Assembly: GCA_964616545.1 (NCBI GenBank)
Contig: CAZTUA010000012.1
Coordinates: 18,185 to 82,184, forward strand
Reading direction: 5' to 3'
Length of the DNA: 64,000 nt
From: an uncultured Actinomycetota bacterium
GTDB lineage: Bacteria > Actinomycetota > Humimicrobiia > Humimicrobiales > Humimicrobiaceae
Position 1 is the stretch's first letter, and each line of letters begins with the position of its first letter. The notes below the pieces were generated by a model. That model saw only the letters and a list, made by a program, of their open reading frames with translations. It ran no database searches and was not told where the DNA came from. Below, piece after piece: positions 7,193 to 36,937 of the stretch. Made by a program: the position numbers and the translations under genes.

Positions 7193-8197
7193 GTGATGGT
7201 AAACTATAATGATATAGCAAAACTGGCAAAAGTTTCCCCTACGACAGTATCACATGTAATCAATGAAACCAGGTTTGTCATGCCTGAAACAAAAGAAAGA
7301 GTTTTTAAGGCAATGAGGAAACTAAAGTACCAGCCCAATCTTCTTGCAAGAAGTCTTGCTACAGGCAAAACGCATACTGTTGGACTGGTTATTTCGGATA
7401 TAAGGAACCCATTCTATCCGGAGCTTATCCAGGGCGTGGAAGAACTCGCGGTAAAAAATGAGTATAACGTGTTCTTATGTAATACCGATTATGACATTGA
7501 CAAGGGATTAAAATCCATAGGGGCTTTAATAAAAAGAAAAATAGACGGCATAATTGTTGCCTCCAGCCAGGTGGACAGTTCTGTGATAGACCAGCTTGTT
7601 GATACTGATGTTAATTTTGTACTGGTAGACTGGTGTAAGAGAAATATAAAAGTGGACAGCCTCTACTTTGATTACAAGGTTGGAATAAAAGAAGCTATTT
7701 CTCATTTATATTCCCTCGGGCACAGAAATATTTTTTTTATAAGCGGCCCAAAAAAATTGAAAACAGCGGAAATAAGAATGAGAAATTTTATAGATACAGT
7801 AAAAAGCCATAAAAAGGAAAAAATAAAATATAAGATACTGGAAAGCAATCATAAAATAGACGGGGGTTATGAAGCTGCCGCTAAAATAATAAAAGAAAAG
7901 AAACTCCCCACAGCAATTATCTGCTCAAATGACCTTATGGCTTTAGGAGCCATGAAAGCTTTTCAGGCCAGGGGTATTAAAATTCCGGATGATATATCTA
8001 TTATCGGTCTGGATAATATAGCGCTGACTGAAATAGTTTCACCTGCGCTGACAACTATAGAGCTTGAGAGATATGAAATAGGTAAAACTGCGATGGAGAT
8101 GCTGCTAAACAGAATGAAGGAAAGAGAATTGCCCAAACAGACATGCATTTTTAAAACCAGATTAATTATAAGAGGAAGTACGGGAAGAGCAGGATAG
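7193..8197 (+). CDS. LacI-family transcriptional repressor
   Basis: DIAKLAKVSPTTVSHVIN HTH, YQPNLLARSL hinge helix, PALTTI. Confidence 0.95.
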   Translation: MMVNYNDIAKLAKVSPTTVSHVINETRFVMPETKERVFKAMRKLKYQPNLLARSLATGKTHTVGLVISDIRNPFYPELIQGVEELAVKNEYNVFLCNTDYDIDKGLKSIGALIKRKIDGIIVASSQVDSSVIDQLVDTDVNFVLVDWCKRNIKVDSLYFDYKVGIKEAISHLYSLGHRNIFFISGPKKLKTAEIRMRNFIDTVKSHKKEKIKYKILESNHKIDGGYEAAAKIIKEKKLPTAIICSNDLMALGAMKAFQARGIKIPDDISIIGLDNIALTEIVSPALTTIELERYEIGKTAMEMLLNRMKERELPKQTCIFKTRLIIRGSTGRAG

Positions 8198-8275
8198 CTC
8201 ATTAACAGACATGAAATTATTGAAAGTTTAGAACTTAATATTAAATTAATCTCGAGTAAATAGGAAAATGGAAAC

Positions 8276-8328
8276 TTGACAGGTAATTTAATTTTTTATA
8301 TTATAAAAAAGCACTTGCGCAAGTGCTT
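8276..8328 (+). promoter_or_regulatory. galK promoter with palindromic LacI-type operator
   Basis: TTGACA(8276)-17 bp-TATTAT(8299), then the perfect palindrome AAGCACTTGCGCAAGTGCTT (8309-8328). Confidence 0.75.
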
Positions 8329-8383
8329 GGTAATGGATTTCTTTGATTTTAAAATTTTAAAATAAGTATAAGAATAATATCCA

Positions 8384-9610
8384 ATGGAAAAATCAGAAAC
8401 TGATAATTATTTTAAAGAATTGCAGAATTTATATCTGGATAGGTTTGTAAGAAATAAGAAAGAAAGAACAGATATATTAAAAAATAAAAGCCCTGTAAAT
8501 ATTCTATCCCCTGGAAGAGTAAATATAATTGGAGAACATACAGATTATAATTTAGGCCTATCTATAAATGCAGCGATAGATAAACAGATATTTATAACAG
8601 GCTATAAAAACAATTCTAATTACATTGAAGTTTTTTCCAGATACTTAAATGATTCCGGCAGATTTTCTTTAGATAATATTGAATTTGATAAGAACAGGCA
8701 CTGGATAAACTATATAAAGGGTGTTTTAAAGGAATATATTCAAAAAGGTCACAAAATCTCCGGTTTCAACATAGTTATAGACAGTAACCTCCCGATAGGT
8801 GCCGGCATCAGCTCATCTGCCTCTCTTGAGGTCGGGGTTGCAAAATTCATTGAGGAGCTTTTTGATTTAAAAGTTACCAGGAAGACAATGGTAAAATTGT
8901 GCAACAGCGCAGAGAACGATTTCGTGGGAGTAAACTGCGGATTTATGGATCAGTTCTCGGTTGCATATGGAAAAAAGGATTGTGTAATTTTTCTAAATTT
9001 TAGAGACCTTTCCTATGAATATATCCCGTTTAACCTCGGGGATAACCTGATTTTAATTATTAACTCGAAAGAGGAGAGAAATCTTGCAGATACAGAATAC
9101 AATAAGAGAAGAAAAGAATGCAATGAAGCAGTTAAAATAATATCCAGCATGATAAAAGGGAAAAAGATCACGTCCCTATCAGATGTTAAACCGGAAATGC
9201 TTGGCAGGCTGGAAGGCTGGATACCTGAAAAACTTTTTAAAAGGGCAAGGCATGTAATAACAGAAAATAACAGGGTTCTACGGGCAAAAGAGAATATTCT
9301 TAAAGGCGATATTAAAAAGCTGGGCCAGATATTATTTGAATCACATAACAGTTTAAAAATTGATTATGAAGTATCAACAAAAAGACTTGATTACCTGGTA
9401 AATAAACTGGGAAAAATTAAAGGTGTCTACGGCGCAAGATTAATGGGGGCAGGTTTTGGCGGAAGCGTTATAAGCATTGTTAGTAAAGATAAAACTGATG
9501 ATATTACAGGAATAACAGGTAAAGGGTTCTCAAAAGAATTCGGTGTTGTTCCTGATTTTATAGAGTGCAAGTTATCGGACGGCACCGGTAGAGTAGTATC
9601 CAGAGATTAA
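8384..9610 (+). CDS. galK: Galactokinase
   Basis: PGRVNIIGEHTDYN, PIGAGISSSAS, CGFMDQ, GARLMGAGFGG. Confidence 0.95.
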   Translation: MEKSETDNYFKELQNLYLDRFVRNKKERTDILKNKSPVNILSPGRVNIIGEHTDYNLGLSINAAIDKQIFITGYKNNSNYIEVFSRYLNDSGRFSLDNIEFDKNRHWINYIKGVLKEYIQKGHKISGFNIVIDSNLPIGAGISSSASLEVGVAKFIEELFDLKVTRKTMVKLCNSAENDFVGVNCGFMDQFSVAYGKKDCVIFLNFRDLSYEYIPFNLGDNLILIINSKEERNLADTEYNKRRKECNEAVKIISSMIKGKKITSLSDVKPEMLGRLEGWIPEKLFKRARHVITENNRVLRAKENILKGDIKKLGQILFESHNSLKIDYEVSTKRLDYLVNKLGKIKGVYGARLMGAGFGGSVISIVSKDKTDDITGITGKGFSKEFGVVPDFIECKLSDGTGRVVSRD

Positions 9611-26094: not shown

Positions 26095-28506
26095 ATGAAG
26101 TATGGTTATTTTAATGACAGAGATAAGGAGTATGTTATTACAAATCCCAGAACACCGGTTAAGTGGATTAATTACATTGGAACCCTGGATTTTGGCGGTT
26201 TTGTGGACCATACAGGCGGCGCATTAATCTGTAAAGGTGACCCGACCTTAAACCGTATTGTAAAATATATACAGCAGATGCCATCCTCGGAATTTAAAGG
26301 TGAGACTCTATACCTGCGGTTCAGGCAGGAGGATGGTTATAAAGTGTTTTCGCCTTTCTTTGTTCCCACACTGGATCCATATGATTTGTATGAATGTCAT
26401 GTAGGTCTTGGTTATAGTCGCATAATATCAGAATTTTACGGACTACGGACAGAGTGCACAATATTTGTCCCCATAAATGACGGAATAGAAATACGCGAGG
26501 TAAAAATAACCAATAAGACAGGAAAAGAGCTGGATATTGATGCAATATGTGTCGTTGAGTATTCACACTTTAATGCCGTGAGACAGTTTGATAATGCTGA
26601 CTGGGCCCCCCAGACGATGCAATCCGAATGCATAAGAGAAAAAGACGGGCTGCTGACCCTGACGCAATATGCTTTTATGCGAAGAGAAACCAATATAAAT
26701 TTTCTAACATCCAATCATCCGGTCTCTTCTTTTGAATCGGACAGGAAACGATTTCTCGGAGACAATGAATACGGAAGCTGGGCAAACCCGCTCTCACTCC
26801 AGAAGGATGAGCTGGAAAGTTATGAAGCACGCAGGGGTGATAATGTAGGCATACTGATGCACCATCTCGGGAACTTTAAGCCGGGAGAAGAAAAAAGTTT
26901 CATTGCTCAGCTGGGGCAGGAGCAGAGTTTTAAAAAGGCATATCCTGTTATTGAAAAATATAGAAAACCTGAATCTATAAAAAGTGCGCTGGGTGAAATT
27001 AAAAGTTTCTGGGATGAATTTTTATCTATAATGCAGGTACAAACACCGGACCCGAATATGAACAGTATGTTAAATATCCAGAATCCCAGGCAGTGTTTTA
27101 TCACCAAGAACTGGTCACGCTATCTTTCATATTACCAGCTTGGACTGGGTACCCGCGGCATTGGTACCCGCGACACTTCGCAGGATATTATGGGGGTAAT
27201 AAGTCACATCCCCCGGGATGCAAAGGAACTGTTAAAAAAGCTTATGATGGTTCAGAGAAAAAATGGGAGTGCCATGCACGGCTTTAATCCTTTAAGCATG
27301 GAAGCATCAACAGGAGAGACTTATGAAATGCCGGACCGCCCGCAGTATTATGGAGATGACCATCTCTGGATCGTTCTTGCAGTAACTGCATATTTAAAAG
27401 AAACGGGAAATATGGATTTTCTAAATGAAGAGATTCCCTATTACGAGAAGAACAGGGAAGGGAAACCCGAAGAGAGCGGGACGGTAATGGATCACATGAA
27501 GAGAGCACTTGATTTTACTAAAAATGATAAAGGAAATCATGGCCTGCCGCTTCTGGGTTTTGCAGACTGGAACGATACTGTTAATTTAAGGACAGGAGCG
27601 GAATCATTATTTAATACACACCTTTATGGAAAAGGGCTTCTTGAGATGATTGAACTCTGTAAATATGCAGGTGATGAAGAATTGGCCGGGGTTTATCAGC
27701 AAGAATATAACAGTGTAAAAGAGGTGTTTAACCGGATATGCTGGGATGGCGAATGGTATATCCGGTATTTTGATTCCGACGGCACCCCGCTCGGTTCACA
27801 AAAAAATGAGCAGGGAAAAATATACTTGAATGCCCAATCCTGGGCAGTAATATCGCGGATGGCTACCGGTAATAGGGCAGAAAAAGCACTGGATTCCGTG
27901 AACAGGTTACTAAACACTTCCAGGGGGATAAAAATTAGCTGGCCCGGTTTCAATGGCTATGACCCTACAAAAGGCGGCATTACCACTTACCCTCCAGGAA
28001 CCAAGGAGAACGGCGGAATATTTTTGCATACCAATCCCTGGGCAGTAATTGCCGAAACCATAATGGGGAATGGCGACCGTGCATACGAGTATTATAATCA
28101 GATAAATCCGGCTGCAAAAAATGATATTATATACGAGTATGAATGCGAGCCCTATGTTTATGCCCAGAATATACTCAGTGACGAGCATCCTCAGTTTGGC
28201 CTCGGGAGAAATAGCTGGTTAACAGGTGCAGCTTCATGGATGTACCAGGCGGGAACAGAGTTCGTGCTGGGTATACGGCCTGCATACCGCGGTCTTGAAA
28301 TCGACCCCTGTATTCCCGGAGAATGGAGCGGTTTTAAAGTCATGCGGAAGTTTAGAAATGCGGTGTATGATATAGAAGTAAAGAACCCGCAGAATGTTAA
28401 CAGGGGAATATCAGTCATTAAAGTGGACGGCGGGGAAATAACCGGCAACATAGTTCCTGTTTTTAAAGACGGCGGCACCCACTCAGTGGAAGTGGTAATG
28501 GGCTAG
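26095..28506 (+). CDS. GH94 glycoside phosphorylase (cellobiose/chitobiose phosphorylase family)
   Basis: MKYGYF..REYVI-type N-terminus, GTRDTSQD, ADWND catalytic motif, ENGGIF, SWLTGAA. Confidence 0.92.
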   Translation: MKYGYFNDRDKEYVITNPRTPVKWINYIGTLDFGGFVDHTGGALICKGDPTLNRIVKYIQQMPSSEFKGETLYLRFRQEDGYKVFSPFFVPTLDPYDLYECHVGLGYSRIISEFYGLRTECTIFVPINDGIEIREVKITNKTGKELDIDAICVVEYSHFNAVRQFDNADWAPQTMQSECIREKDGLLTLTQYAFMRRETNINFLTSNHPVSSFESDRKRFLGDNEYGSWANPLSLQKDELESYEARRGDNVGILMHHLGNFKPGEEKSFIAQLGQEQSFKKAYPVIEKYRKPESIKSALGEIKSFWDEFLSIMQVQTPDPNMNSMLNIQNPRQCFITKNWSRYLSYYQLGLGTRGIGTRDTSQDIMGVISHIPRDAKELLKKLMMVQRKNGSAMHGFNPLSMEASTGETYEMPDRPQYYGDDHLWIVLAVTAYLKETGNMDFLNEEIPYYEKNREGKPEESGTVMDHMKRALDFTKNDKGNHGLPLLGFADWNDTVNLRTGAESLFNTHLYGKGLLEMIELCKYAGDEELAGVYQQEYNSVKEVFNRICWDGEWYIRYFDSDGTPLGSQKNEQGKIYLNAQSWAVISRMATGNRAEKALDSVNRLLNTSRGIKISWPGFNGYDPTKGGITTYPPGTKENGGIFLHTNPWAVIAETIMGNGDRAYEYYNQINPAAKNDIIYEYECEPYVYAQNILSDEHPQFGLGRNSWLTGAASWMYQAGTEFVLGIRPAYRGLEIDPCIPGEWSGFKVMRKFRNAVYDIEVKNPQNVNRGISVIKVDGGEITGNIVPVFKDGGTHSVEVVMG

Positions 28507-28745: not shown

Positions 28746-29153
28746 ATGCCGGAAGAATCTATAGCTGCTTATTTTAATAACATCTTGGCTCTTACAACTT
28801 TTATTCTGGTTCTGGCATTTATATTTTCCCTGATATTTCTTATATCACGTATATTAACGGGCCGGAAAAAGCCCGGAAGTGGTAATTTCGGCGGTATTGA
28901 GGTAGAAGAAGCTGCACGGTTTGATAAACGGAATGTCATATCTGATTATAAAGAGGATCCCAACCGGCAGAAAAATATTTTTATTCTGGCAATTATTTTT
29001 ATAATAATAATTTATTTTATATTGCTTGCTCTCTGTATTTTTAATTTTAGCAGAAATCCTTCGGCAAATTTAAATCTATTTTTAATTGTTGGAATAATAT
29101 TTCACCTTATATTAATTACAATATACGTTATCAGATCTAAAATTATAGGTTAG
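28746..29153 (+). CDS. NuoA-like subunit (highly diverged)
   Basis: Three TM helices with a long first loop; first gene before nuoB; YECG loop motif absent. Confidence 0.65.
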   Translation: MPEESIAAYFNNILALTTFILVLAFIFSLIFLISRILTGRKKPGSGNFGGIEVEEAARFDKRNVISDYKEDPNRQKNIFILAIIFIIIIYFILLALCIFNFSRNPSANLNLFLIVGIIFHLILITIYVIRSKIIG

Positions 29154-29164
29154 GGGTTAATTGA

Positions 29165-29560
29165 ATGCCTTTTAATAACAGGAGCAATTTAAATATAATG
29201 GTTACGGGGTTTGGCTGCTGTAAACAGGAAATATTTGCGGCACAGGGAGCACTTTATGATATCCAGAGGTTTGGTATAAATTTTGTCAGTACACCTGAAG
29301 ATGCTGACCTGCTGGTCGTTCAGGGCTTCTATAATAAAGAGGGTATAATCAGGGTTATAAATATTTATGAAAAGATGAACCACCCAAAAGGAATAATTGC
29401 AGTAGGAAGCTGTGTTTTAAACCGGAACTTACTTGATCCAAAAAGTGAATTAATGGACAGATTCAGAGACAGCGTAAAAATAATCATGCATGTACCGGGA
29501 TGTCCGCCACGGCCCGAAGCATTTATGTATGCAGTGTTAAGAATTCTAAATGAAAATTAA
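29165..29560 (+). CDS. nuoB: NuoB-like Fe-S (N2) subunit
   Basis: GCC tandem Cys, DIQRFG, ADLLVVQG, AVGSC, VPGCPPRPEA. Confidence 0.88.
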   Translation: MPFNNRSNLNIMVTGFGCCKQEIFAAQGALYDIQRFGINFVSTPEDADLLVVQGFYNKEGIIRVINIYEKMNHPKGIIAVGSCVLNRNLLDPKSELMDRFRDSVKIIMHVPGCPPRPEAFMYAVLRILNEN

Positions 29561-29605
29561 AGGCAGCATAATAGGAACAAAAATGAAATTTAAATATTAA
29601 TAAAA

Positions 29606-31105
29606 ATGATTGATGATATTTATAATAAAATCTATCCTTCATCCAGGTCTGTATATGGGGAAGAAATAGAAAGGAACCTGGAGTATATTCTGAGGGATGA
29701 GATAAAAAAAATTTCCCGAATAGGCTTCGATTTACTGGTAGAGATATCGCCGGAGAGACTTTATACGGTTATAGAGAAGCTGAAAGAAAACTCACAGCTT
29801 GAGATAAATAATTTTCATGGAATTAATACTTATAAAAATGAAAAAGGACGTTTTTTGCTGATTAACCTGAAATCAGCTACGGGCGATATATCTGTTCTGT
29901 TAAAAATGGAAGTGTCGGATGAAGAGCCGGGAAAAAACTATAAAGAATCCATAGACATCTTAAAAAAATTTTATAAGGCTTCAGCTTTTTATGGACCTGT
30001 GGAGAAAATAGCCACCGGTAATTACAATATCAGAATTACACCCGGGATCCTTGACGGCCTGGACTGTTTTGACCTGAATATTTATGCGGAAGAGGATGAA
30101 GTTAAAGATGCCCATATTAATACAGGTATAAGCAGGATTGCGGATGATGAATTTTATAAGGATATGAGCATTCATAATCTTATAGCTTATATAAGCAGAT
30201 TTGACTGGAAGGCCGGCGTGTTTCCTGAAGTCTGCCTTTGCAGTGCCTTTGAAAAATTACTGCAATTGAAGTTGCCCGGGAAAGCTCAGTACACAAGGAT
30301 GCTCCTCTGCGAATTATATAGAGTATCTAACCATATTTATTTTATTTCAAATATATGCAATATTCTACAGTATGATATTGCATATAATCTCTGCCTTCTG
30401 GAGAGAGAAAAGATTCTAAGAATTATAGAAACAATTACAGGCTCCAGAGTTGCCCCTAATTTTATAAGAATAGGTGGAGTGCGCAGGGATATAGAAGGAG
30501 AGGTAATATCAGGAATAAGGAAAAAACTTCCGCTTATATTTAAAAATATAAACAGGATAGAAAAAATAATGATGAATGACCCCCTTGTAATCGAGAGACT
30601 GAAGGATACAGGAACAGTACCTAAAGAAATTGCTCTGGAGTATGGAGTAACCGGGCCCAATCTCAGGGCTTCTGGAATCAGGTATGACCTGCGGAAAGAT
30701 AAAGACTTTATTTCATATAAAGACCTGTCATTTCTTGTACCTGTGGGAAGAGTGGGAGATTGCCTGGACAGGGTTCTTGTCAGGTTTATTGAAATTTTCC
30801 AGTCTCTTAAATTAATAAACCAGATTACCAGTAACTTTCCGCGGGGAGCACATATAAAAAAAATAAACCTGTCTAATCTGGAGTTCCGGCCGGAAATAAT
30901 TTCTCAGGATATTGAATGCCCGCATGGAATTTTTAAAATTTACATGGAAGTGGGCAAAAGAAACATAGAGTCGCTTGTGATAAAAGGTCCGTCTATAAGC
31001 AGTCTTATCCTTGGAGAAGAAATAATTAAAGGCAGCAGCATAGAAGATGTTGAATTGATTTTAATGAGCCTTGATATAAGCCCGGGAGAAATAATAAGTA
31101 CATAA
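29606..31105 (+). CDS. NuoC/NuoD-like fusion (diverged, no NiFe motifs)
   Basis: ELYRVSNH, ITGSR...IRIGGV, YGVTGPNLRASG..YDLRK, GDCLDR, SLDISPGE; short NuoC-like N-terminus. Confidence 0.85.
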   Translation: MIDDIYNKIYPSSRSVYGEEIERNLEYILRDEIKKISRIGFDLLVEISPERLYTVIEKLKENSQLEINNFHGINTYKNEKGRFLLINLKSATGDISVLLKMEVSDEEPGKNYKESIDILKKFYKASAFYGPVEKIATGNYNIRITPGILDGLDCFDLNIYAEEDEVKDAHINTGISRIADDEFYKDMSIHNLIAYISRFDWKAGVFPEVCLCSAFEKLLQLKLPGKAQYTRMLLCELYRVSNHIYFISNICNILQYDIAYNLCLLEREKILRIIETITGSRVAPNFIRIGGVRRDIEGEVISGIRKKLPLIFKNINRIEKIMMNDPLVIERLKDTGTVPKEIALEYGVTGPNLRASGIRYDLRKDKDFISYKDLSFLVPVGRVGDCLDRVLVRFIEIFQSLKLINQITSNFPRGAHIKKINLSNLEFRPEIISQDIECPHGIFKIYMEVGKRNIESLVIKGPSISSLILGEEIIKGSSIEDVELILMSLDISPGEIIST

Positions 31106-31115
31106 AAGGATACCA

Positions 31116-32051
31116 GTGTTAATTATATTAAGAAAAATTATTTATATTTTAATAATATTAGCCCTGAATTTGTATTTGTACGAGTATATAAGCAACAAAT
31201 TCACTGCCCGGATGGAGCTGAGAAGGGGCTACAGGGTAACAAGAGCAGCAGGTATAGGATTTCCGATGATTAGATTTTTTAAATTCATTTCTACTGACAG
31301 CAAAATCACCGCATGGACGTTTTTTATCTTTTTGCTTTCTTTTCTTATGTGGAGTACTGTTCCGCTGACTCCGAACCTGATTCTGGTTGAAAGCGATAGC
31401 AGCCTTTTAATTGCAGTTTCTTTGTATATAGGGCTTACAAGTGTATTGATTTTTAATTCAGCGGGGTCTTCTTACAGGATAATCTTCAGTGAAACAGTTA
31501 AAAAATTGATGATTATATTATCCTTTATGGTTCCCTTATTGCTGGGTATTGTAAGTATTGTTCTGGTAAATAAAACATTGAGCTTAAGGGAGATTGTAGA
31601 CTCCCAGTATAAATACTGGAACATAATATTGCAGCCGCTGGGGTTCTTTACGGTTTTTGCATCAACATTATTTCAATTGAAGCTTCTGGGCATGAGCAGG
31701 AAAAATTATATATCAACCGGAGCTTATACAGGCAGGGAAGGGAAAGGATTTGTTAAAGCAATTGAAAAACTTCCGGCTTATATGATTGTTTTTTTCTTAA
31801 TTATAATTATGAATATTCTTTATCTTGGAGGATGGCAGGACCTTTATATAATACGGGGCGAGATAATGCTTGCGGTAAAATTTTATTTTATCTTTTTTAT
31901 ATTATTATTGATGGATAAAATTATCTGCAGAATTGATAATTATAAAATGCTGGTAAAAATTAACTGGAAATTTTTAATTCCGGTTTCACTTGTAAATTTT
32001 ATAATAACACTCGGGTTTTTCGTGATGAGAGACATTTATAATTTAGTTTAA
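31116..32051 (+). CDS. NuoH-like membrane subunit (diverged)
   Basis: KFTARMELRRG, LSLREIVDSQ..WNIILQPLGF, YLGGW, WKFLIPVSLVN. Confidence 0.82.
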   Translation: MLIILRKIIYILIILALNLYLYEYISNKFTARMELRRGYRVTRAAGIGFPMIRFFKFISTDSKITAWTFFIFLLSFLMWSTVPLTPNLILVESDSSLLIAVSLYIGLTSVLIFNSAGSSYRIIFSETVKKLMIILSFMVPLLLGIVSIVLVNKTLSLREIVDSQYKYWNIILQPLGFFTVFASTLFQLKLLGMSRKNYISTGAYTGREGKGFVKAIEKLPAYMIVFFLIIIMNILYLGGWQDLYIIRGEIMLAVKFYFIFFILLLMDKIICRIDNYKMLVKINWKFLIPVSLVNFIITLGFFVMRDIYNLV

Positions 32052-32078
32052 ATTTTATTATCAGGGTATCTATTAAAA

Positions 32079-32501
32079 ATGTTAAGGATTATAAAAAACT
32101 TTTTTATTGTTCTGGGGAATATGTTCAGGAAACCCAGAACCGTCGTTTACCCAAAAGAAAAAATAATAATTCCTGAAGGAAGCAGAGGGGTAATACATTT
32201 AAAACTGGACCCCGACTCGCTGGATATTATTTGCAATGCATGCGGGCTCTGCAGTAAAATTTGTCCACAGAATTGCATAGAGGTTAAGAAGAGGGTGGAG
32301 AGAAGCGGCAAAGTAATTCTTGAAGATTTTATTCTGGATTTAAACAAATGTATTTTTTGCGGCAATTGTGTTGAATTTTGTGATTTTAATGCAATAGATA
32401 TGTCATACCAGTACCAGCTGGCAGACTTCAGGAGGAAAAATTTAAAATTGGGGAAAAATGAATTAATAAAACCATCAAGCACGATAAGAGATTTCTGGTA
32501 A
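32079..32501 (+). CDS. nuoI: NuoI-like 2x[4Fe-4S] subunit
   Basis: TVVYP, CNACGLCSKICP and CIFCGNCVEFC. Confidence 0.9.
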   Translation: MLRIIKNFFIVLGNMFRKPRTVVYPKEKIIIPEGSRGVIHLKLDPDSLDIICNACGLCSKICPQNCIEVKKRVERSGKVILEDFILDLNKCIFCGNCVEFCDFNAIDMSYQYQLADFRRKNLKLGKNELIKPSSTIRDFW

Positions 32502-32508
32502 AATAAAT

Positions 32509-33051
32509 ATGTCATACGGAAGTCAGTTGACAACAATAATAATACACTATACAGGCATTACAGGCTTGATGCTGTGCAGTCTGCTCTCCCTTTTTCTGGC
32601 CAATAAAAAAAAGAAAATGCTGTTTTTGTTCCTTTCATTTATATTCGGGGGAATACTGTATTTCGTAAATTACTCCGGTATCCTGGTTTTTATAATTGGG
32701 ATTATAATGATATTCTTTTTTATATTGCTATATTTGTTTGTTTTCCAGCTGGAGCTTTTCGGAAATGATATAGAGGCTGGAACCGATAATAAGCCAGATC
32801 AATCAAAAAAGAAGGAAATCATTACCATAATTACAGCCCTTTTATTTTGTTCGGCTATCGGGTATTTCCTATATGTATACACATCCAGATTTTTAAGAGA
32901 TGCAGCAATAAACGAGAGTATCCTGATTACCACTCTGAGTGATATTAGCAGTCAGTTATCTGTTGATTACAGCCTGGTTATAATAATTCTGGCTGCTTCA
33001 TTATTTATATCATCTATATGGTTAATTATTATTAAAATGGAGAAAAAATGA
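32509..33051 (+). CDS. NuoJ-like membrane subunit (diverged)
   Basis: Five TM segments, position between nuoI and nuoK, ILLYLFVFQL segment. Confidence 0.65.
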   Translation: MSYGSQLTTIIIHYTGITGLMLCSLLSLFLANKKKKMLFLFLSFIFGGILYFVNYSGILVFIIGIIMIFFFILLYLFVFQLELFGNDIEAGTDNKPDQSKKKEIITIITALLFCSAIGYFLYVYTSRFLRDAAINESILITTLSDISSQLSVDYSLVIIILAASLFISSIWLIIIKMEKK

Positions 33052-33395
33052 ATTTTCAGTTAATTATATATATTAATCTTTTATTTTTTTTAATGGGAAT
33101 TTTCGGACTCCTGTATAGCAGGAATATTATATCAGTATTTGTTTCCCTGCAATTTATTATAATTTCAGCCATCCTGAATTTTTTAAGTTTTTCAAGGTTT
33201 CTCTACCAGCGGTTGTTATGGGATAAGATATTTATAATTGTAGGAGTTACGGTTATATATTTTATAATGTTTTGCCTTATTTATTATATTTATTCAAAAA
33301 GGGATCTCCCGGACAGGAAAATTTTTTACAGAGACTTTAAAATATTCAGAATGACAGTAAGCGATTGGTGGGGCGAGGACAGGGATAATTTTTAA
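33048..33395 (+). CDS. NuoK-like membrane subunit (diverged)
   Basis: GIFGLLYSRNIISVFVSLQ...LNFLSFSRF; ATGA overlap with the upstream gene. Confidence 0.75.
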   Translation: MNFQLIIYINLLFFLMGIFGLLYSRNIISVFVSLQFIIISAILNFLSFSRFLYQRLLWDKIFIIVGVTVIYFIMFCLIYYIYSKRDLPDRKIFYRDFKIFRMTVSDWWGEDRDNF

Positions 33396-33396
33396 A

Positions 33397-34887
33397 ATGG
33401 ACTTTCTATTATATATTAATGAAAAAATAAACCCTTTTCAGAGCATAGCTATATTAGCAATTGCAATTCTTATTCTGTCATTTTTTGCGATTTCTAAAAG
33501 CAGAACCGTAAAAATATGTCTTATAACGATGGTTTCGCTTTTACTTGCGCTGGCCTTTTTCCTGAATATCTATGCTTATATTTCCCGCGGTAATTTTTCT
33601 AATTTCCTCCTGTTTTTTGGGAATGTCCAGATGGTAATGGCAGGTATCATGATATTCTGTGCATTGAATCTGTTATTTTTTATCTACATTTATCATAAAG
33701 ATAATGATAATTTTATTAAAATACTAATGATTTTTATATTTTCTGTTATCTGTGCTTTATTTGTAATTATAAGCAGAAATTTTCTTTTGATATTTACGAG
33801 TCTTTCTCTATTTATATTAACTGTATTCCAGCTGGTGTCGGCTTTTAATTCAAAGAATGATAAAACCGGTATATATGTACTTGAATATTTTCTGAGGCCG
33901 TTAATAACTATTATCTTATTTTTTTTCGCTTTTTCATTGCTTCTGGGCGCAACCGATTTCAAGGATTTCAACCAGATTTTACAGTCAGAATATATTACAA
34001 ACCCGCTGACTGTTTTGAGCCTGGTTGTTTTTGGAGTTGCTCTTTATCAGTATTTTTTCCTGTTCCCCTTTCAGGGTCCGTATATAAAAATGCTTAAAAG
34101 AAGCGACCCTGCAGCCAATGCAGCTGTATGGTTCTTATATTTCCCTGTCGGCATATTTATGTTTCTGAAACTGAGTAGCGTATATAATTATTTTACAGAA
34201 AAAAGCAATGCATACCTCTCAGTTTTTTTAATAATTATAACCTTCGTCTGCCTGGCTGCAGGAAATATCGGGGCAATTAAAACGAAAAGTGTGAGAAGAA
34301 TAATATCATTTTTATTTTTATTTTTTATTGGCTTCTTTTTACTCAATGTTTCAATGTTTTCTGCCGGAATTATAACCAGGTTTTTAATGGATTTATTTAA
34401 TTTTATAAATATCTTTCTGATATTGTTCAGTTTTATGCCTTTATACAGTATTTTTAGCACTATCGAAAAACAAACGGGGACTGATCATATAAGAGGAATA
34501 AAAGGGCTGGGAAGGATTAATAAATATGCAGGTGTAAACTTAATAATAATATTTATACCGTGGACTGTATTTATTTATCATATAGAACCTTTTATAAAAT
34601 ATTTTAATGCTGATTTTTTACAGATGGGAGCATTGAATATGGCTTTATTGATACTAATAATGGCTGCCCTGATATTTCTCTTATTGAATATAACCAGGAT
34701 TATTATACAGATTTTTAAAAAACCGGCAGCAGAGACTGTGCAAAAAGCAGTTCTTCCCAGGTTTTTATATATTTACATTACTTTTTATTCCTTTATTATA
34801 ATAGTTGCCGTAGTTCTGGGTATCCTTAGAATAATAAATATTGATGTACCTTTTACCGGTTTTATGATAGAAGAGTTTAATTTTTAA
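33397..34887 (+). CDS. NuoN-like antiporter-type subunit (diverged)
   Basis: 496 aa, about 14 TM segments, LLLGATDF, FPFQ, GNIGAIKTKSVRRIISF, IKGLGR. Confidence 0.78.
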   Translation: MDFLLYINEKINPFQSIAILAIAILILSFFAISKSRTVKICLITMVSLLLALAFFLNIYAYISRGNFSNFLLFFGNVQMVMAGIMIFCALNLLFFIYIYHKDNDNFIKILMIFIFSVICALFVIISRNFLLIFTSLSLFILTVFQLVSAFNSKNDKTGIYVLEYFLRPLITIILFFFAFSLLLGATDFKDFNQILQSEYITNPLTVLSLVVFGVALYQYFFLFPFQGPYIKMLKRSDPAANAAVWFLYFPVGIFMFLKLSSVYNYFTEKSNAYLSVFLIIITFVCLAAGNIGAIKTKSVRRIISFLFLFFIGFFLLNVSMFSAGIITRFLMDLFNFINIFLILFSFMPLYSIFSTIEKQTGTDHIRGIKGLGRINKYAGVNLIIIFIPWTVFIYHIEPFIKYFNADFLQMGALNMALLILIMAALIFLLLNITRIIIQIFKKPAAETVQKAVLPRFLYIYITFYSFIIIVAVVLGILRIINIDVPFTGFMIEEFNF

Positions 34888-34916: not shown

Positions 34917-35696
34917 TTGGAAAACTTAGAAGACAATAAAAAAAGATTTAATATCAAGCACTTCCTGATAATTATACTGGTCCTTATTATCATAATGGCA
35001 ATTGTTATAAGCATAAATGAATTTTCCTTTAAAAAAGAATACAGGCCTGCTACTGCGCTAGCGGAAGAGCTTCCGAGGTTCAGGCTGATTGATATGGATA
35101 ACACGGGTATCACCGGGGATATGGACAGAGACGGAATAAATGACCAGAAAGATATTTTACTGGGTGCCAGGAAGCAGCTTGAGAAACCTGCCAGAAATAT
35201 AATTCTGGAGGAAAATGAAACAAATTATTACCTGGGAGGGGACCCTCCCGAAGAGCTGGCCATAAGCACAGATATTATAGCCAGGGCTTTTATGGAAGCA
35301 GGTTTTGATTTAAGGGAGCTTTTGTATGAAGACTTAAAAGAGAACTTTGACCAGTATCCGGTAAAAAAAATATGGGGGCAGACTGTTTGCGACCCGGATA
35401 TAGATTACAGGAGAATCCAGAATCTGGAAGTCTTTTTTATGAGGAACGCAAAACACCTGGATATTATATTTAAGGATTCGGATATCAGCAATCTGGAAAA
35501 ATGGCTTCCGGGGGATGTTGTTTTTTTCGACATGAGCGGTGACGGATATACCGATAATGCCGGGATTGTTTCGGACAGCACAACAAGGGACGGCGTTCCC
35601 AGGGTAATTTATAACTATATTGATCCCGGGTATACGGTTGAGAGAGATATCCTGAGAGACGAAATCATAACGGGCCATTACAGGTTTCCGCGGTAA
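34917..35696 (+). CDS. DUF1287 (YijF-like) membrane-anchored protein
   Basis: N-terminal TM; YYLGGDPP...STDIIARA, DIDYRRIQNL..F, WLPGDVVFF, GHYRF. Confidence 0.75.
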   Translation: MENLEDNKKRFNIKHFLIIILVLIIIMAIVISINEFSFKKEYRPATALAEELPRFRLIDMDNTGITGDMDRDGINDQKDILLGARKQLEKPARNIILEENETNYYLGGDPPEELAISTDIIARAFMEAGFDLRELLYEDLKENFDQYPVKKIWGQTVCDPDIDYRRIQNLEVFFMRNAKHLDIIFKDSDISNLEKWLPGDVVFFDMSGDGYTDNAGIVSDSTTRDGVPRVIYNYIDPGYTVERDILRDEIITGHYRFPR

Positions 35697-35935: not shown

Positions 35936-36937
35936 ATGTCAAAAGAACTAAAAATAAGTCTTTACAAAAAGGCAATAATTATAATTATTGCCTTTTTAAT
36001 CTTAATCTCATCTCCGGTTATTTTACCAGGGAAAGTGCATGCTATAACCTTAAAAGAGCTTGGTAATTCAATCGCGCGGTTGAGCCAGGATGAAGAAAAT
36101 TTACTGGAAGAAATACTTGCCTCTGAAGCCGAAGTTGAAAATAAAAGGAACAAACTCCAGTCATTAAACGAGGAGTTTCAGATACTTGAGATAGAGCTTA
36201 ATAAGCTTAATGAAATCAGGGAAGAATTGATGGTAAGTATTGAGAGTAAAAAGGATGACCTCAGGGAAAAAATTATTTTTTCATACAAGTATGCAAATGA
36301 TGACATTGCAAATCTTATAATTACTGCCGGGAATTTGAATGAAGTTATAAACAATCTCTATATTTTTAAAAGTATCATGGAAAGCCAGGCGGACCTGATT
36401 GAGCAGCTACGTTTTGAAAAAGAAGAATATGACAGAATCTCCCGGAAATCTGAGGAAAAGAAGAAAGAAATTGAAGAGACCAGAGATATAATTGAGGAAG
36501 AGGAAAAGCTGCTTCTAAAGAGCATTGAGGAAAACAAAATTCTTCTTGAAAGGGTAAAAAGCGAAAAAGGGGAGATTCAGGGGCTCTTAAGCGAAATAAA
36601 AAAAAGAATAGCAATGGTTCAGCCCCCCGGGCTTACCCTGACGGGAGAATGGGATATGGTTGCTACGGCATACTATGCTCACGGAAAGGGCGGCAATGAT
36701 ATAAATGGCAACGGTATAACGGCGATAGGACTTAGAGCGAGAAAAGGAATAGTTGCCGTTGACCCCAGGGTTATTCCTCTGGGAACAAAACTTTATATAC
36801 CCGGTTATGGAGAAGCGCTGGCAGCAGATACCGGCGGGTGGATAAAGGGAAATAGGATTGACCTATGTTTTGAAACTCTGCCGGAATGTTACAGATATGG
36901 CAGAAGGAAGATAAAAATATATCTTGTTGAAAAATAA
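35936..36937 (+). CDS. Secreted coiled-coil + 3D-domain peptidoglycan-associated protein
   Basis: Signal peptide, long coiled coil, ATAY...VAVDPRVIPLGT...AADTGG.IKGNRIDL. Confidence 0.9.
   Translation: MSKELKISLYKKAIIIIIAFLILISSPVILPGKVHAITLKELGNSIARLSQDEENLLEEILASEAEVENKRNKLQSLNEEFQILEIELNKLNEIREELMVSIESKKDDLREKIIFSYKYANDDIANLIITAGNLNEVINNLYIFKSIMESQADLIEQLRFEKEEYDRISRKSEEKKKEIEETRDIIEEEEKLLLKSIEENKILLERVKSEKGEIQGLLSEIKKRIAMVQPPGLTLTGEWDMVATAYYAHGKGGNDINGNGITAIGLRARKGIVAVDPRVIPLGTKLYIPGYGEALAADTGGWIKGNRIDLCFETLPECYRYGRRKIKIYLVEK

What the first reader, a model, noticed from the sequence alone, without database searches (positions are those of the whole stretch)
29165..31105. N2 cluster retained but quinone site and NiFe site both absent
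Seen: NuoB keeps CC..C..C (tandem Cys, complex I type). In the D domain GPQHPSTHG reads TPGILDGLD, GYLHRG reads GISRIA, RLDY reads RFDW and the C-terminus is SLDISPGEIIST with no DPCxxC; the NuoC W.ERE..D.FG motif is missing. Established: Thermus Nqo4 His38 and Tyr87 bind the quinone head group; hydrogenases need two CxxC motifs. Inference: electrons reaching N2 have no known acceptor, so a different small molecule or partner protein is implied. Extra cysteines (LDCF, EVCLC, ECPHG) deserve a look as a new metal or thiol site.
Basis: partly seen in the sequence, partly recalled or inferred. Interest (0 to 1): 0.75.

Follow-up and report, generated by a model that had tools for sequence, protein, structure and literature searches.

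The report
Quinone-less, pump-stripped complex I relative
An uncultured anaerobic actinobacterium keeps an eight-gene relative of respiratory complex I whose iron-sulfur electron wire is intact but whose quinone site, hydrogenase metal site and textbook proton-pump residues are all gone, so it must pass electrons to something still unknown.

Summary
The NuoB-like protein keeps all four N2 cysteines. The NuoCD-like protein lacks the quinone residues (Thermus His38, Tyr87, Asp139 read Leu152, Trp201, Ile253) and all four [NiFe] cysteine positions. Its NuoC part is truncated before the W.ERE motif.

Corrections:
- The Tyr87 position is Tyr in 41 of 91 family members.
- The LDCF cysteine is not conserved.
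- Cys212 also occurs in ordinary NuoD.
- The real clade signature is ECPHG (Cys438/His440) replacing EAPRG/ENPRG, plus an acidic LDGLDxFD loop.

The context widens the finding. The operon is A?-B-CD-H-I-J-K-N-like, followed by DUF1287, and the fused CD gene is found in 24 of 24 genomes of the taxonomic family. NuoL, M, E, F and G are absent from the operon. The NuoH loop acids, the NuoK glutamates and the antiporter Lys/Glu are lost. The genome (93.7% complete) has no UbiA-type prenyltransferase, but it has PFOR, Rnf and hydrogenases.

Best reading: a complex-I-derived, Ehr-type, ferredoxin-linked electron-transfer complex that is quinone- and H2-independent and not a canonical pump. Its acceptor is unknown, and the Cys438/His440 pocket is the candidate site.

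The general class (Ehr; natural NuoD without His38/Tyr87) is in print. This scan has already met the same family on other DNA (e1-1419616). I could not measure distances in the model.

The parts
28746..29153 (+). Small 3-TM protein in the NuoA position (135 aa). Homology to NuoA is not shown.
   Evidence: No Pfam or NCBIfam hit. A family profile finds no NuoA in the PDB. The Atlas gives only unnamed clusters. It was found at this position in 5 of 8 f1 loci by tblastn. It has no acidic residue in TM2.
29165..29560 (+). NuoB-like subunit carrying cluster N2. The ligand codons are Cys18-Cys19 at 29216-29221, Cys83 at 29411-29413 and Cys113 at 29501-29503. The N-terminus is short.
   Evidence: PF01058 E=1.6e-16. 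The alignment to Nqo6 covers all four Cys, which are invariant in 11 of 11. It scores under all NCBIfam cut-offs.
29606..31105 (+). Fused NuoC(truncated)-NuoD-like subunit (499 aa). The C-like domain is about aa 1-140. The D domain has neither a quinone site nor a NiFe site.
   Evidence: PF00346 E=1.3e-54. The AF2 model has pLDDT 88 and pTM 0.90. Foldseek gives TMq 0.85 to E. coli NuoCD and to HycE. hhalign to a NuoC gives E=6.6e-5.
30038..30070 (+). Beta1-beta2 loop TPGILDGLDCF, replacing GPQHPSTHGVL. His38 is Leu152. Asp150, Asp153 and Asp156 are conserved.
   Evidence: In one search, position 150 is D/E in 87 of 91, D153 is kept in 90 of 91 and D156 in 89 of 91.
30197..30241 (+). RFDW...PEVCLC. 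Asp200 is at the NiFe Cys1 position, Trp201 at Tyr87, and Ala203 at the NiFe Cys2 position. Cys210 and Cys212 follow.
30914..30928 (+). ECPHG motif (Cys438, His440). It replaces EAPRG of hydrogenases and ENPRG/EAPRG of NuoD, and is the clade signature.
   Evidence: In one search, C438 is kept in 89 of 91 and H440 in 87 of 91. The motif is shared by f2 (P0102) and f3 (L027).
31067..31090 (+). C-terminal SLDISPGE. The NiFe Cys3 and Cys4 positions read Ser492 and Glu495. The terminal DR of NuoD is absent.
31116..32051 (+). NuoH-like subunit. The acidic TMH5-6 loop motif (R.PFD.PEAE.EL..G..EYSG) is lost.
   Evidence: PF00146 E=8.4e-23. The profile against E. coli NuoH gives E=1.7e-39 with the alignment shown. 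Family alignment.
32079..32501 (+). NuoI-like 2x[4Fe-4S] ferredoxin subunit. The CxxCxxCxxxC motifs are at 32232-32264 and 32349-32381.
   Evidence: TIGR01971 E=1.1e-31, just under the cut-off. Both motifs are intact in 11 of 11.
32509..33051 (+). NuoJ-like membrane subunit. The homology is weak.
   Evidence: No Pfam family. The best PDB hits of the family profile are NuoJ, E=0.005.
33048..33395 (+). NuoK-like subunit. The Glu36 position reads Gln35, and TM3 has no acidic residue.
   Evidence: PF00420 E=1.2e-6. Gln at this column in 8 of 8 f1 sequences, and Glu only in the f2 relative.
33397..34887 (+). Single antiporter-like (NuoN-type) subunit stripped of its key charges.
   Evidence: TIGR01770 E=8.8e-9. 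No PF00361 match anywhere in the genome. The profile against NdhB/NuoN gives E=7.6e-60 (the profile includes 3 non-f1 rows). TM5 Glu, TM7 Lys and TM8 Lys are absent in 7 of 7 f1 sequences. The TM12 Lys region is deleted in 4, reads Arg in 2 and Lys in 1.
34917..35696 (+). Membrane-anchored DUF1287 protein, 29 bases downstream on the same strand. It is linked by conserved synteny only.
   Evidence: PF06940 E=2.8e-34. It lies directly after the N-like gene in all 7 f1 loci that reach past it, and three genes further on in f3. The CTD motif cysteine is variable.

Best explanation
This is the redox core of a complex-I-derived, Ehr-type membrane complex with the gene order A?-B-CD-H-I-J-K-N-like. 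It no longer uses quinone and never makes or uses H2.

Shown:
- The three-cluster wire is fully conserved (two [4Fe-4S] in the NuoI-like subunit, and N2 on four Cys with the tandem-CC signature of complex I).
- The D domain folds like NuoD.
- His38 and Asp139 are absent from every member. The Tyr87 position is Trp here and alternates between Tyr and Trp in the family. All four NiFe cysteine positions are non-Cys.
- The operon holds no NADH module and no NuoL or NuoM.
- The canonical coupling and pump residues of NuoH, NuoK and the single NuoN-like subunit are replaced by neutral residues.

Inferred:
- Reduced ferredoxin enters at the NuoI-like subunit. PFOR is present, and this is how the NuoEFG-less relatives NDH-1 and MBH/MBS are fed.
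- Electrons run to N2 and leave to a non-quinone acceptor in the remodelled pocket. That pocket is lined by the clade-specific Cys438/His440 pair, which sits where the pendant Arg of [NiFe] hydrogenases lies. It is also lined by the acidic LDGLDxFD loop, Asp200 and Glu495.
- The membrane subunits act mainly as an anchor or conduit, not as the textbook proton pump.
- The chemical identity of the acceptor is not known. Candidates are sulfane sulfur or a disulfide, a bound metal ion, or a partner protein.
For: FeS ligands:
- The four NuoB Cys are invariant in 11 of 11 and align to Nqo6.
- The NuoI motifs are intact in 11 of 11.

D domain:
- Alignments, with family counts: His at position 152 in 0 of 91, Asp at 253 in 0 of 91, Cys at 200/203/495 in 0 of 91, and Cys at 492 in 3 of 91.
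- ECPHG is kept: Cys438 in 89 of 91 and His440 in 87 of 91.
- The fold is confirmed.

Complex I ancestry:
- The only NCBIfam hits are NuoD, NdhH and FpoD models, all under their cut-offs, with no hydrogenase model.
- NuoB has tandem CC.
- The gene order is that of nuo.

Pump loss. No PF00361 match in the genome.

Quinone independence:
- No PF01040 match in the own genome, which is 93.7% complete.
- No PF01040 match in 9 of 11 genus-mates, nor in 13 of 24 family genomes, although 24 of 24 carry the CD gene.

Selection:
- Intact fused ORFs in 24 of 24 family genomes.
- 27 invariant columns in 91 sequences that go down to 35% identity.
- Some family genomes also carry a canonical NuoD and a group 4 hydrogenase, so this is a distinct paralogue.

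Donor plausibility: PFOR, Rnf and an FeFe hydrogenase are present.

Precedent for a complex of this type with neither a quinone nor a NiFe site: MBS (PMC7684303, passages read).
Against: - No activity, expression or cofactor data exist, and no RNA run was listed.
- The acceptor is unassigned.
- I could not measure whether Cys438/His440 face N2 or a cavity, because the model gives no coordinates. Their placement rests on motif homology to the hydrogenase EAPRG arginine, and that link is recalled, not tested.
- Tyr stands at the Tyr87 position in 41 of 91 members, and 11 of 24 family genomes have a UbiA-family gene. A lipophilic aromatic acceptor in some members is therefore not excluded.
- Loss of canonical charges does not prove loss of all ion translocation.
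- Ferredoxin as the donor is an analogy.
- The tree is unrooted. Whether the clade lost the quinone residues or never had them is open.
Confidence: 0.6

Rival explanations
1. MBS-like sulfane-sulfur or polysulfide (or other S-S) reductase. Electrons from ferredoxin reduce a sulfur compound at or next to the proximal cluster, with Cys438/His440 helping substrate handling.
For: MBS shows that a complex I relative with neither a NiFe nor a quinone site can reduce polysulfide at the proximal cluster (PMC7684303). MbsL (6u8y_L) is the only one of the three PDB alignments shown in which a single stretch runs through the C-terminal half (query 193-496, E=3.4e-40). The clade has a conserved Cys/His pair at the former active site.
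Against: The defining feature of MBS is a shortened MbsJ loop that leaves the proximal cluster with only three Cys. That feature is absent here: the tandem CC and all four Cys keep complex-I spacing. There is no Mrp-type module and no PF00361 match. In MBS the residual MbsL cysteines are not catalytic. No sulfur-metabolism gene lies beside the operon.
Confidence: 0.13
2. It still reduces a membrane quinone or quinone-like carrier at a non-canonical, Fpo-like site (aromatic residue at position 201, no His38/Asp139).
For: Position 201 is Tyr, Trp or Phe in 83 of 91 members. Fpo has Tyr87 but lacks His38 and Asp139, and still reduces methanophenazine (PMC4758237, passages read). 11 of 24 family genomes have a UbiA-family match.
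Against: No UbiA-family gene was found in the own genome (93.7% complete) or in 9 of 11 genus-mates that keep the complex. Alternation between Tyr and Trp argues against an essential hydroxyl. The NuoH loop and the pump residues that couple quinone chemistry are gone.
Confidence: 0.1
3. Redox-silent relic. The FeS clusters are kept only for folding, and the complex serves as a membrane scaffold or in another non-redox role, possibly together with the DUF1287 protein.
For: The catalytic and pump residues are lost wholesale. The scan's notes describe other degenerate Ehr-like modules (unchecked). DUF1287 synteny is tight.
Against: All 12 cluster-ligating Cys are invariant in 11 of 11. New clade-specific residues are conserved at the former active site. 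Cofactor-less relics usually lose the cysteines.
Confidence: 0.1
4. A re-invented metal site (Asp200, Glu495, His440, Cys438) at the old NiFe position that catalyses proton reduction or another small-molecule reaction.
For: These four residues are at least 94% conserved. By alignment, Asp200 and Glu495 occupy the NiFe Cys1 and Cys4 positions and His440 the pendant-Arg position. The pocket is very acidic (D150, D153, D156).
Against: Asp and Glu at these two positions are also standard in ordinary NuoD, so only Cys438 and His440 are new. No maturation genes are linked. The geometry was not measured.
Confidence: 0.07

Closest known systems
[quoted passage not shown] 2013 is recalled, not read)
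   Same: A membrane complex related to complex I and to group 4 hydrogenases. Its large subunit lacks the NiFe-binding cysteines and its function is unknown.
   Different: The published Ehr examples are placed next to group 4f hydrogenases. This clade scores only with NuoD, NdhH and FpoD models. It also has tandem-CC NuoB, nuo gene order with J- and K-like subunits, a fused and truncated C-D subunit, a single charge-stripped antiporter-like subunit, and the ECPHG motif.
NuoEFG-less 11-subunit complex I relatives (bacterial Nuo11, NDH-1, Fpo)
   Same: The gene order, the tandem-CC N2 site, the NuoI wire and presumed ferredoxin input are shared. NdhH and Nqo4 are among the best PDB matches.
   Different: This complex has no NuoL or NuoM and no His38 or Asp139. 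The Tyr87 position is Trp here. The NuoH acidic loop, the NuoK glutamates and the NuoN Lys/Glu are gone. All subunits score under the NCBIfam cut-offs.
Natural NuoD variants without His38/Tyr87/Asp139 (Sulfolobus, Nautiliales, Desulfurobacteriales; PMC4758237)
   Same: The quinone-binding triad is replaced by residues that cannot hydrogen-bond.
   Different: Those variants belong to otherwise complete Nuo complexes. Degeneration of the membrane arm, the CD truncation and the ECPHG motif are not described in the passages I read.
MBS (membrane-bound sulfane sulfur reductase) of Pyrococcus furiosus, PDB 6U8Y
   Same: It is ferredoxin-fed, has three [4Fe-4S] clusters, and has no NiFe and no quinone. 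Its C-terminus (SLDNCPPDI) resembles SLDISPGEI.
   Different: MBS has a three-Cys proximal cluster, a full Mrp module and two antiporter-like pumps with conserved charges. Here N2 has four Cys and the pump residues are lost.
Group 4 [NiFe] hydrogenases (Ech/Mbh/Hyc)
   Same: The large-subunit fold is shared: HycE TMq 0.85, MbhL E=1e-28.
   Different: This protein has neither RxCGxC nor DPCxxC. A true group 4 enzyme from a genus-mate shows both motifs in the same alignment.

Membership tests
Respiratory complex I (NADH:quinone oxidoreductase) | NuoB cluster N2 on CC...C...CP | tested here: met
   Cys18/19/83/113 align to Nqo6 Cys45/46/111/140. Invariant in 11 of 11.
Respiratory complex I (NADH:quinone oxidoreductase) | NuoD quinone headgroup residues His38, Tyr87, Asp139 (Thermus numbering) | tested here: not met
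   They read Leu152, Trp201 and Ile253. Family counts: His 0 of 91, Tyr 41 of 91, Asp 0 of 91.
Respiratory complex I (NADH:quinone oxidoreductase) | Three antiporter-like subunits (L, M, N) with conserved TM5 Glu and TM7/TM8/TM12 Lys | tested here: not met
   There is one N-like gene only, and no PF00361 match in the genome. TM5 Glu, TM7 Lys and TM8 Lys are absent in 7 of 7.
Respiratory complex I (NADH:quinone oxidoreductase) | Coupling elements: NuoH TMH5-6 acidic loop, NuoK Glu36/Glu72 | tested here: not met
   The loop motif is absent against E. coli NuoH. NuoK reads Gln in 8 of 8 f1 sequences and has no TM3 acid.
Respiratory complex I (NADH:quinone oxidoreductase) | NADH module NuoEFG in or with the operon | tested here: not met
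   It is not in the operon. The four NuoF-like genes lie on other contigs. One is about 2 kb from the Rnf genes and one about 1.3 kb from the FeFe hydrogenase gene.
Respiratory complex I (NADH:quinone oxidoreductase) | Scores above the NCBIfam Nuo model cut-offs | tested here: not met
   All eight proteins are under every cut-off, for example NuoD at 236 against 360 bits.
Group 4 [NiFe] hydrogenase | Large-subunit RxCGxC and DPCxxC NiFe ligands | tested here: not met
   The positions read Asp200, Ala203, Ser492 and Glu495 in the alignment with a genus-mate's group 4 enzyme.
Group 4 [NiFe] hydrogenase | Small subunit with spaced CxxC at the proximal cluster | tested here: not met
   Tandem CC is found here, against C..C (PCNNCD) in the genus-mate's hydrogenase small subunit.
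Ehr complexes | Large-subunit homologue without NiFe cysteines, in a membrane complex with NuoB/H and antiporter-like subunits | tested here: met
   Definition as given in PMC6349859 and PMC10284858.
Ehr complexes | Phylogenetic placement beside group 4 (4f) hydrogenases | tested here: inconclusive
   The clan f1+f3+f2 is split from canonical NuoD, group 4 hydrogenases and another Ehr-like protein at 99/99 support. The root and the inner order are unresolved, and no named Ehr reference sequences were available.
MBS/Mbx | Proximal cluster with three Cys (shortened MbsJ loop) | tested here: not met
   Four Cys at complex-I spacing. Feature as described in PMC7684303.
MBS/Mbx | Mrp-derived Na+/H+ module | tested here: not met
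   No PF00361 match in the genome.
Fpo-like complex working with HdrD | An HdrD/CCG-domain partner in the genome | tested here: not met
   No PF02754 match in the own genome, which is 93.7% complete.

The most novel reading that the evidence does not exclude
The clade has rebuilt the old NiFe/quinone pocket into a new catalytic site. The site would be Cys438/His440, with Asp200, Glu495 and the triple-Asp loop, and it would work either as a thiol/His dyad or as a mononuclear metal site. It would take electrons from N2 and reduce a soluble, non-quinone substrate. The complex would then be a new type of membrane-anchored ferredoxin-dependent reductase whose complex I membrane arm has been retired from proton pumping.
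Probability: 0.2. Interest if true: 0.75.

Novelty: new variant of a known kind. Interest (0 to 1): 0.5.

Why it matters
These genes are annotated as 'NADH-quinone oxidoreductase subunit D' in public data. For the related Hakuba actinobacterium they are read as an H+-translocating NADH-quinone oxidoreductase in a metabolic reconstruction (PMC7325909). For this family that reading is almost certainly wrong, so energy budgets drawn for these widespread sediment and subsurface Actinomycetota need revising.

For complex I research it offers a natural minimal system of eight genes and one antiporter-like subunit. The electron wire is conserved while the quinone site and the charged pump residues are gone. 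That makes it a useful contrast for asking what the wire and the NuoH/A/J/K scaffold do on their own. It is also a tractable entry to the open question of what Ehr-type complexes reduce.

Tried and rejected
- Expression: the look-up of sequencing runs listed 8 DNA holders and no RNA holder, so I laid no reads.
- The promoter and terminator scan was uninformative in this AT-rich DNA: 46 sites found against 38.7 expected.
- A-position protein: no Pfam or NCBIfam hit, no NuoA in a profile-to-PDB search, and only unnamed Atlas clusters.
- DUF1287: no solved relative by sequence.
- hhalign of the family against the NuoC-like gene of a genus-mate's group 4 hydrogenase gave nothing. The Hakubella-type NuoC did match.
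- 'Fpo-like plus HdrD' was rejected for this genome: no CCG domain.
- 'Three Cys plus one His extra FeS cluster from Cys210/212/438/His440' was rejected. Cys210 is Ala in the f2 and f3 relatives. Cys212 also occurs in ordinary NuoD. Cys210 and Cys212 lie two residues apart in one predicted helix.
- Literature: the first 'Ehr' search was swamped by health-record papers. 'Hakubella' gave one nomenclature list. No paper describing this family's motifs turned up in the searches.
- A first look-up of earlier findings failed because the machine was busy. It was repeated later.
- dN/dS was not attempted, because the nearest orthologue is only about 74% identical.
- Complex prediction was not used. 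B-CD binding is a textbook pair, and the tool would not give distances.
Full report
**What is there.**
Window 28746-34887 (+ strand) holds eight tightly packed genes:
- a small 3-TM protein in the NuoA position
- a NuoB-like protein (131 aa)
- a NuoCD-like fusion (499 aa)
- NuoH-like, NuoI-like, NuoJ-like and NuoK-like proteins
- one NuoN-like protein (496 aa)

A membrane-anchored DUF1287 gene follows 29 bases later.

Pfam recognises B, D, H, I and K. NCBIfam matches only Nuo, Ndh and Fpo models for B, D, H, K and N, and every protein scores under the curated cut-offs. The finding's coordinates cover the B and CD genes.

**Checking the observation: NuoB.**
Cys18, Cys19, Cys83 and Cys113 align without shift to Thermus Nqo6 Cys45/46/111/140. 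They are invariant in 11 of 11 orthologues.

**Checking the observation: NuoCD.**
I aligned the CD protein with canonical NuoD sequences and with a true group 4 [NiFe] hydrogenase large subunit from a genus-mate genome (coordinates verified). The result:
- GPQHPSTHG is TPGILDGLD, so His34 is Ile148 and His38 is Leu152.
- GYLHRG is GISRIA.
- RLDY is RFDW, so Tyr87 is Trp201.
- The hydrogenase cysteines of RxCGxC fall on Asp200 and Ala203.
- The cysteines of DPCxxC fall on Ser492 and Glu495.

The ungapped phmmer alignment to Thermus Nqo4 adds two more changes: Asp139 is Ile253 and His169 is Ala283.

**The N-terminal domain.**
The first 140 residues or so get no Pfam hit. Even so, an AlphaFold model (pLDDT 88, pTM 0.90) superposes over its whole length on the fused NuoCD of E. 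coli and on HycE (TMq 0.85). The model was built on cluster representative P0001, which differs from the window protein at 2 of 499 residues.

A profile comparison with the separate NuoC of a class-level relative aligns residues 24-131 (E=6.6e-5). It ends exactly where ADWYERE should be; the window protein reads FYKASAFYGP there. The domain is therefore a NuoC truncated before its signature motif.

**Corrections from orthologues.**
About 100 full-length homologues exist, down to roughly 35% identity. They come from metagenomes, and those with names are labelled Actinobacteria or Actinomycetota MAGs. In 91 of them:

| Position | Count in 91 members |
|---|---|
| 152 (His38) | His in 0 |
| 253 (Asp139) | Asp in 0 |
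| 201 (Tyr87) | Tyr 41, Trp 39, other 11 |
| 154 (LDCF Cys) | Cys in 44 |
| 210 | Cys in 86 |
| 212 | Cys in 91 |
| 438 | Cys in 89 |
| 440 | His in 87 |
| 150 | Asp or Glu in 87 |
| 153 | Asp in 90 |
| 156 | Asp in 89 |

What these counts mean:
- Loss of the tyrosine is not a family trait.
- The LDCF cysteine is not conserved.
- Cys210 is Ala in the two class-level relatives.
- Cys212 is also Cys in the ordinary NuoD sequences P0104 and P0113. Cys210 and Cys212 lie two residues apart in one predicted helix.
- Cys438 and His440 (ECPHG) replace the Ala/Asn and Arg of EAPRG/ENPRG. They are shared by the class-level relatives.
- The beta1-beta2 loop carries three conserved acids, Asp150, Asp153 and Asp156.

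So ECPHG and LDGLDxFD are the real signatures of this clade.

**Context beyond the finding.**
The fused CD gene is present in 24 of 24 searched genomes of the same taxonomic family (14 genera). A separate D gene with ECPHG is found in two sister families of the class. One of these carries the protein that NCBI names NuoD of Candidatus Hakubella thermalkaliphila.

The order B-CD-H-I-J-K-N-DUF1287 is kept in all 7 family loci that have enough DNA. The A-position gene was detected in 5 of 8 loci.

The membrane arm has lost its textbook functional residues:
- The NuoH TMH5-6 loop motif (R.PFD.PEAE.EL...EYSG in E. coli) is absent.
- The NuoK Glu36 position is Gln in 8 of 8 family sequences, and TM3 has no acid.
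- The N-like subunit is clearly homologous to NuoN/NdhB. The profile gives E=7.6e-60, but that profile includes three non-family rows.
- The N-like subunit lacks the TM5 Glu, TM7 Lys and TM8 Lys in 7 of 7. The TM12 Lys segment is deleted in 4 of 7.
- No other antiporter-like gene (PF00361) exists in the genome.

By contrast, both CxxCxxCxxxC motifs of NuoI are intact in 11 of 11.

**The organism.**
The genome is 1.75 Mb and 93.7% complete. What the searches found:
- only this one PF00346 locus
- no UbiA-family prenyltransferase (the control search rings in 14 of 14 reference genomes)
- no CCG/HdrD-type protein
- PFOR, Rnf, an [FeFe] hydrogenase and two other [NiFe] hydrogenase loci

Among relatives that all carry the complex, 9 of 11 genus-mates and 13 of 24 family genomes have no UbiA-family match. 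Many of those are more than 90% complete, but absence from draft genomes is not proof.

Some family genomes also encode a canonical NuoD with GPHHPSTHG and RLDY, a group 4 hydrogenase, or another Ehr-like D subunit. The complex is therefore a distinct paralogue, not a decayed copy of the only Nuo.

**Phylogeny and breadth.**
In a maximum-likelihood tree of 28 D domains, the family plus the two sister families form a clan. The clan is separated at 99/99 support from canonical NuoD, group 4 hydrogenases and the other Ehr-like protein. The root and the inner order of the other side are unresolved.

I ran a profile search of 1.84 billion cluster representatives and read motifs on an added alignment. 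The regex count covers 150 rows: the 148 new representatives plus P0018 and P0098. The alignment tally covers the 148 new representatives:
- 9 of the 150 rows carry ECPHG, all among the top scorers.
- 17 of the 148 new representatives were partial and were set aside.
- 32 of the 148 lack the His38 and Tyr87 equivalents and every NiFe cysteine.
- 56 of the 148 have both quinone residues.

Large subunits with neither a quinone nor a NiFe site are thus common in metagenomes. The ECPHG clade is one small branch of them.

**How it most likely works.**
Shown: a complete three-cluster wire under strong conservation, a NuoD fold, no quinone headgroup site, no NiFe site, no NADH module in the operon, and no canonical pump residues.

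Inferred:
- Reduced ferredoxin from PFOR docks at the NuoI-like subunit, as in other NuoEFG-less relatives.
- Electrons reach N2. Here N2 lacks the neighbouring His169, which is His in only 6 of 91 members.
- Electrons leave to a non-quinone acceptor in the remodelled pocket.
- By motif alignment, His440 takes the place of the arginine of EAPRG. In [NiFe] hydrogenases a strictly conserved pendant arginine sits directly above the metals (abstract of PMC10430524, seen in the listing). That this arginine is the one in EAPRG is my recollection, not a tested fact.
- Cys438/His440 together with Asp200, Glu495 and the Asp-rich loop form the best candidate reactive site.

I could not test the geometry, because the model tool gives no coordinates. 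The acceptor is unknown. I rank the options as follows: sulfane sulfur or a disulfide by analogy with MBS, a lipophilic aromatic carrier in some members, a redox-silent scaffold, and a re-invented metal site.

**Comparison with what is known.**
- The concept of Ehr complexes is in print (PMC6349859, passages; PMC10284858, passage). These are relatives of complex I and group 4 hydrogenases that lack NiFe ligands and have no known function.
- Natural NuoD proteins lacking His38, Tyr87 and Asp139 are described for Sulfolobus, Nautiliales and Desulfurobacteriales. Fpo is described as having Tyr87 without His38 and Asp139 (PMC4758237, passages).
- MBS shows that such a complex can be catalytic through its proximal cluster. 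Its defining three-Cys cluster and Mrp module are absent here (PMC7684303, passages).
- The only paper I found on the related Hakuba actinobacterium treats its genes as an H+-translocating NADH-quinone oxidoreductase (PMC7325909, passages).
- I found no paper describing this family's features in the searches. Marreiros et al. 2013 is not in the library and may bear on this.
- The scan itself has met the same family on another genome (note e1-1419616). Its follow-up reached essentially the same reading, and my calls reproduce that reading independently.

**Verdict.**
This is a new, well-conserved variant within the known Ehr/complex I-like class, mis-annotated in public data as NADH-quinone oxidoreductase. 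It is of moderate interest.

Noticed in passing
window 34917-35696 (+); also L019-L021 and L023-L027: A membrane-anchored DUF1287 protein follows the operon directly in all 7 family loci that reach that far. It lies three genes downstream in a sister family. At 56-75% identity to the window's copy within the family, it is better conserved than most complex subunits. The Cys of its CTD motif is variable (S/C/A/N). It has no solved relative by sequence.
   Followed up: partly
window 35936-36937 (+): A 333-aa protein with a signal or anchor, a long coiled coil and a C-terminal part that looks like a 3D (cell-wall-binding or lytic) domain by eye. I ran no family search on it.
   Followed up: no
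window 26095-28506 (+): A GH94 cellobiose/chitobiose phosphorylase (PF17167, E=1e-130) lies 240 bases upstream of the operon. It is kept at this place in one genus-mate locus (L025, 80% identity) and was not seen in the other loci.
   Followed up: partly
L031:3405-4508 (genus-mate G008): A second, different D-like protein (367 aa) with GPQH...GYLHRG but neither RxDY nor CxxC (reads CRINVVEP, SLYIVAPEIDR). It belongs to another Ehr/Mbx-like complex in the same genus and is absent from the window's genome.
   Followed up: partly
L028:1750-3168 and 8122-9567 (sister family, Hakubella-like): The sister-family operon is preceded by a fully canonical NuoN gene. It keeps a separate NuoC with the W.ERE motif, the NuoK Glu and the TM5 Glu of its N-like subunit, while its D subunit already lacks His38 and Tyr87 and has ECPHG. 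It looks like an intermediate stage of the degeneration.
   Followed up: partly
L027:4918-5964 (sister family f3): This D subunit has no NuoC partner at all in the locus. Its C-terminus SFDICVCEVDK has a Cys at the NiFe Cys3 position, as in MbsL.
   Followed up: no
P0001 against window 29606-31105: The cluster representative returned as the window's own protein differs from the window's translation at residues 303 (G/E) and 326 (P/F). The structure model is of the representative.
   Followed up: yes
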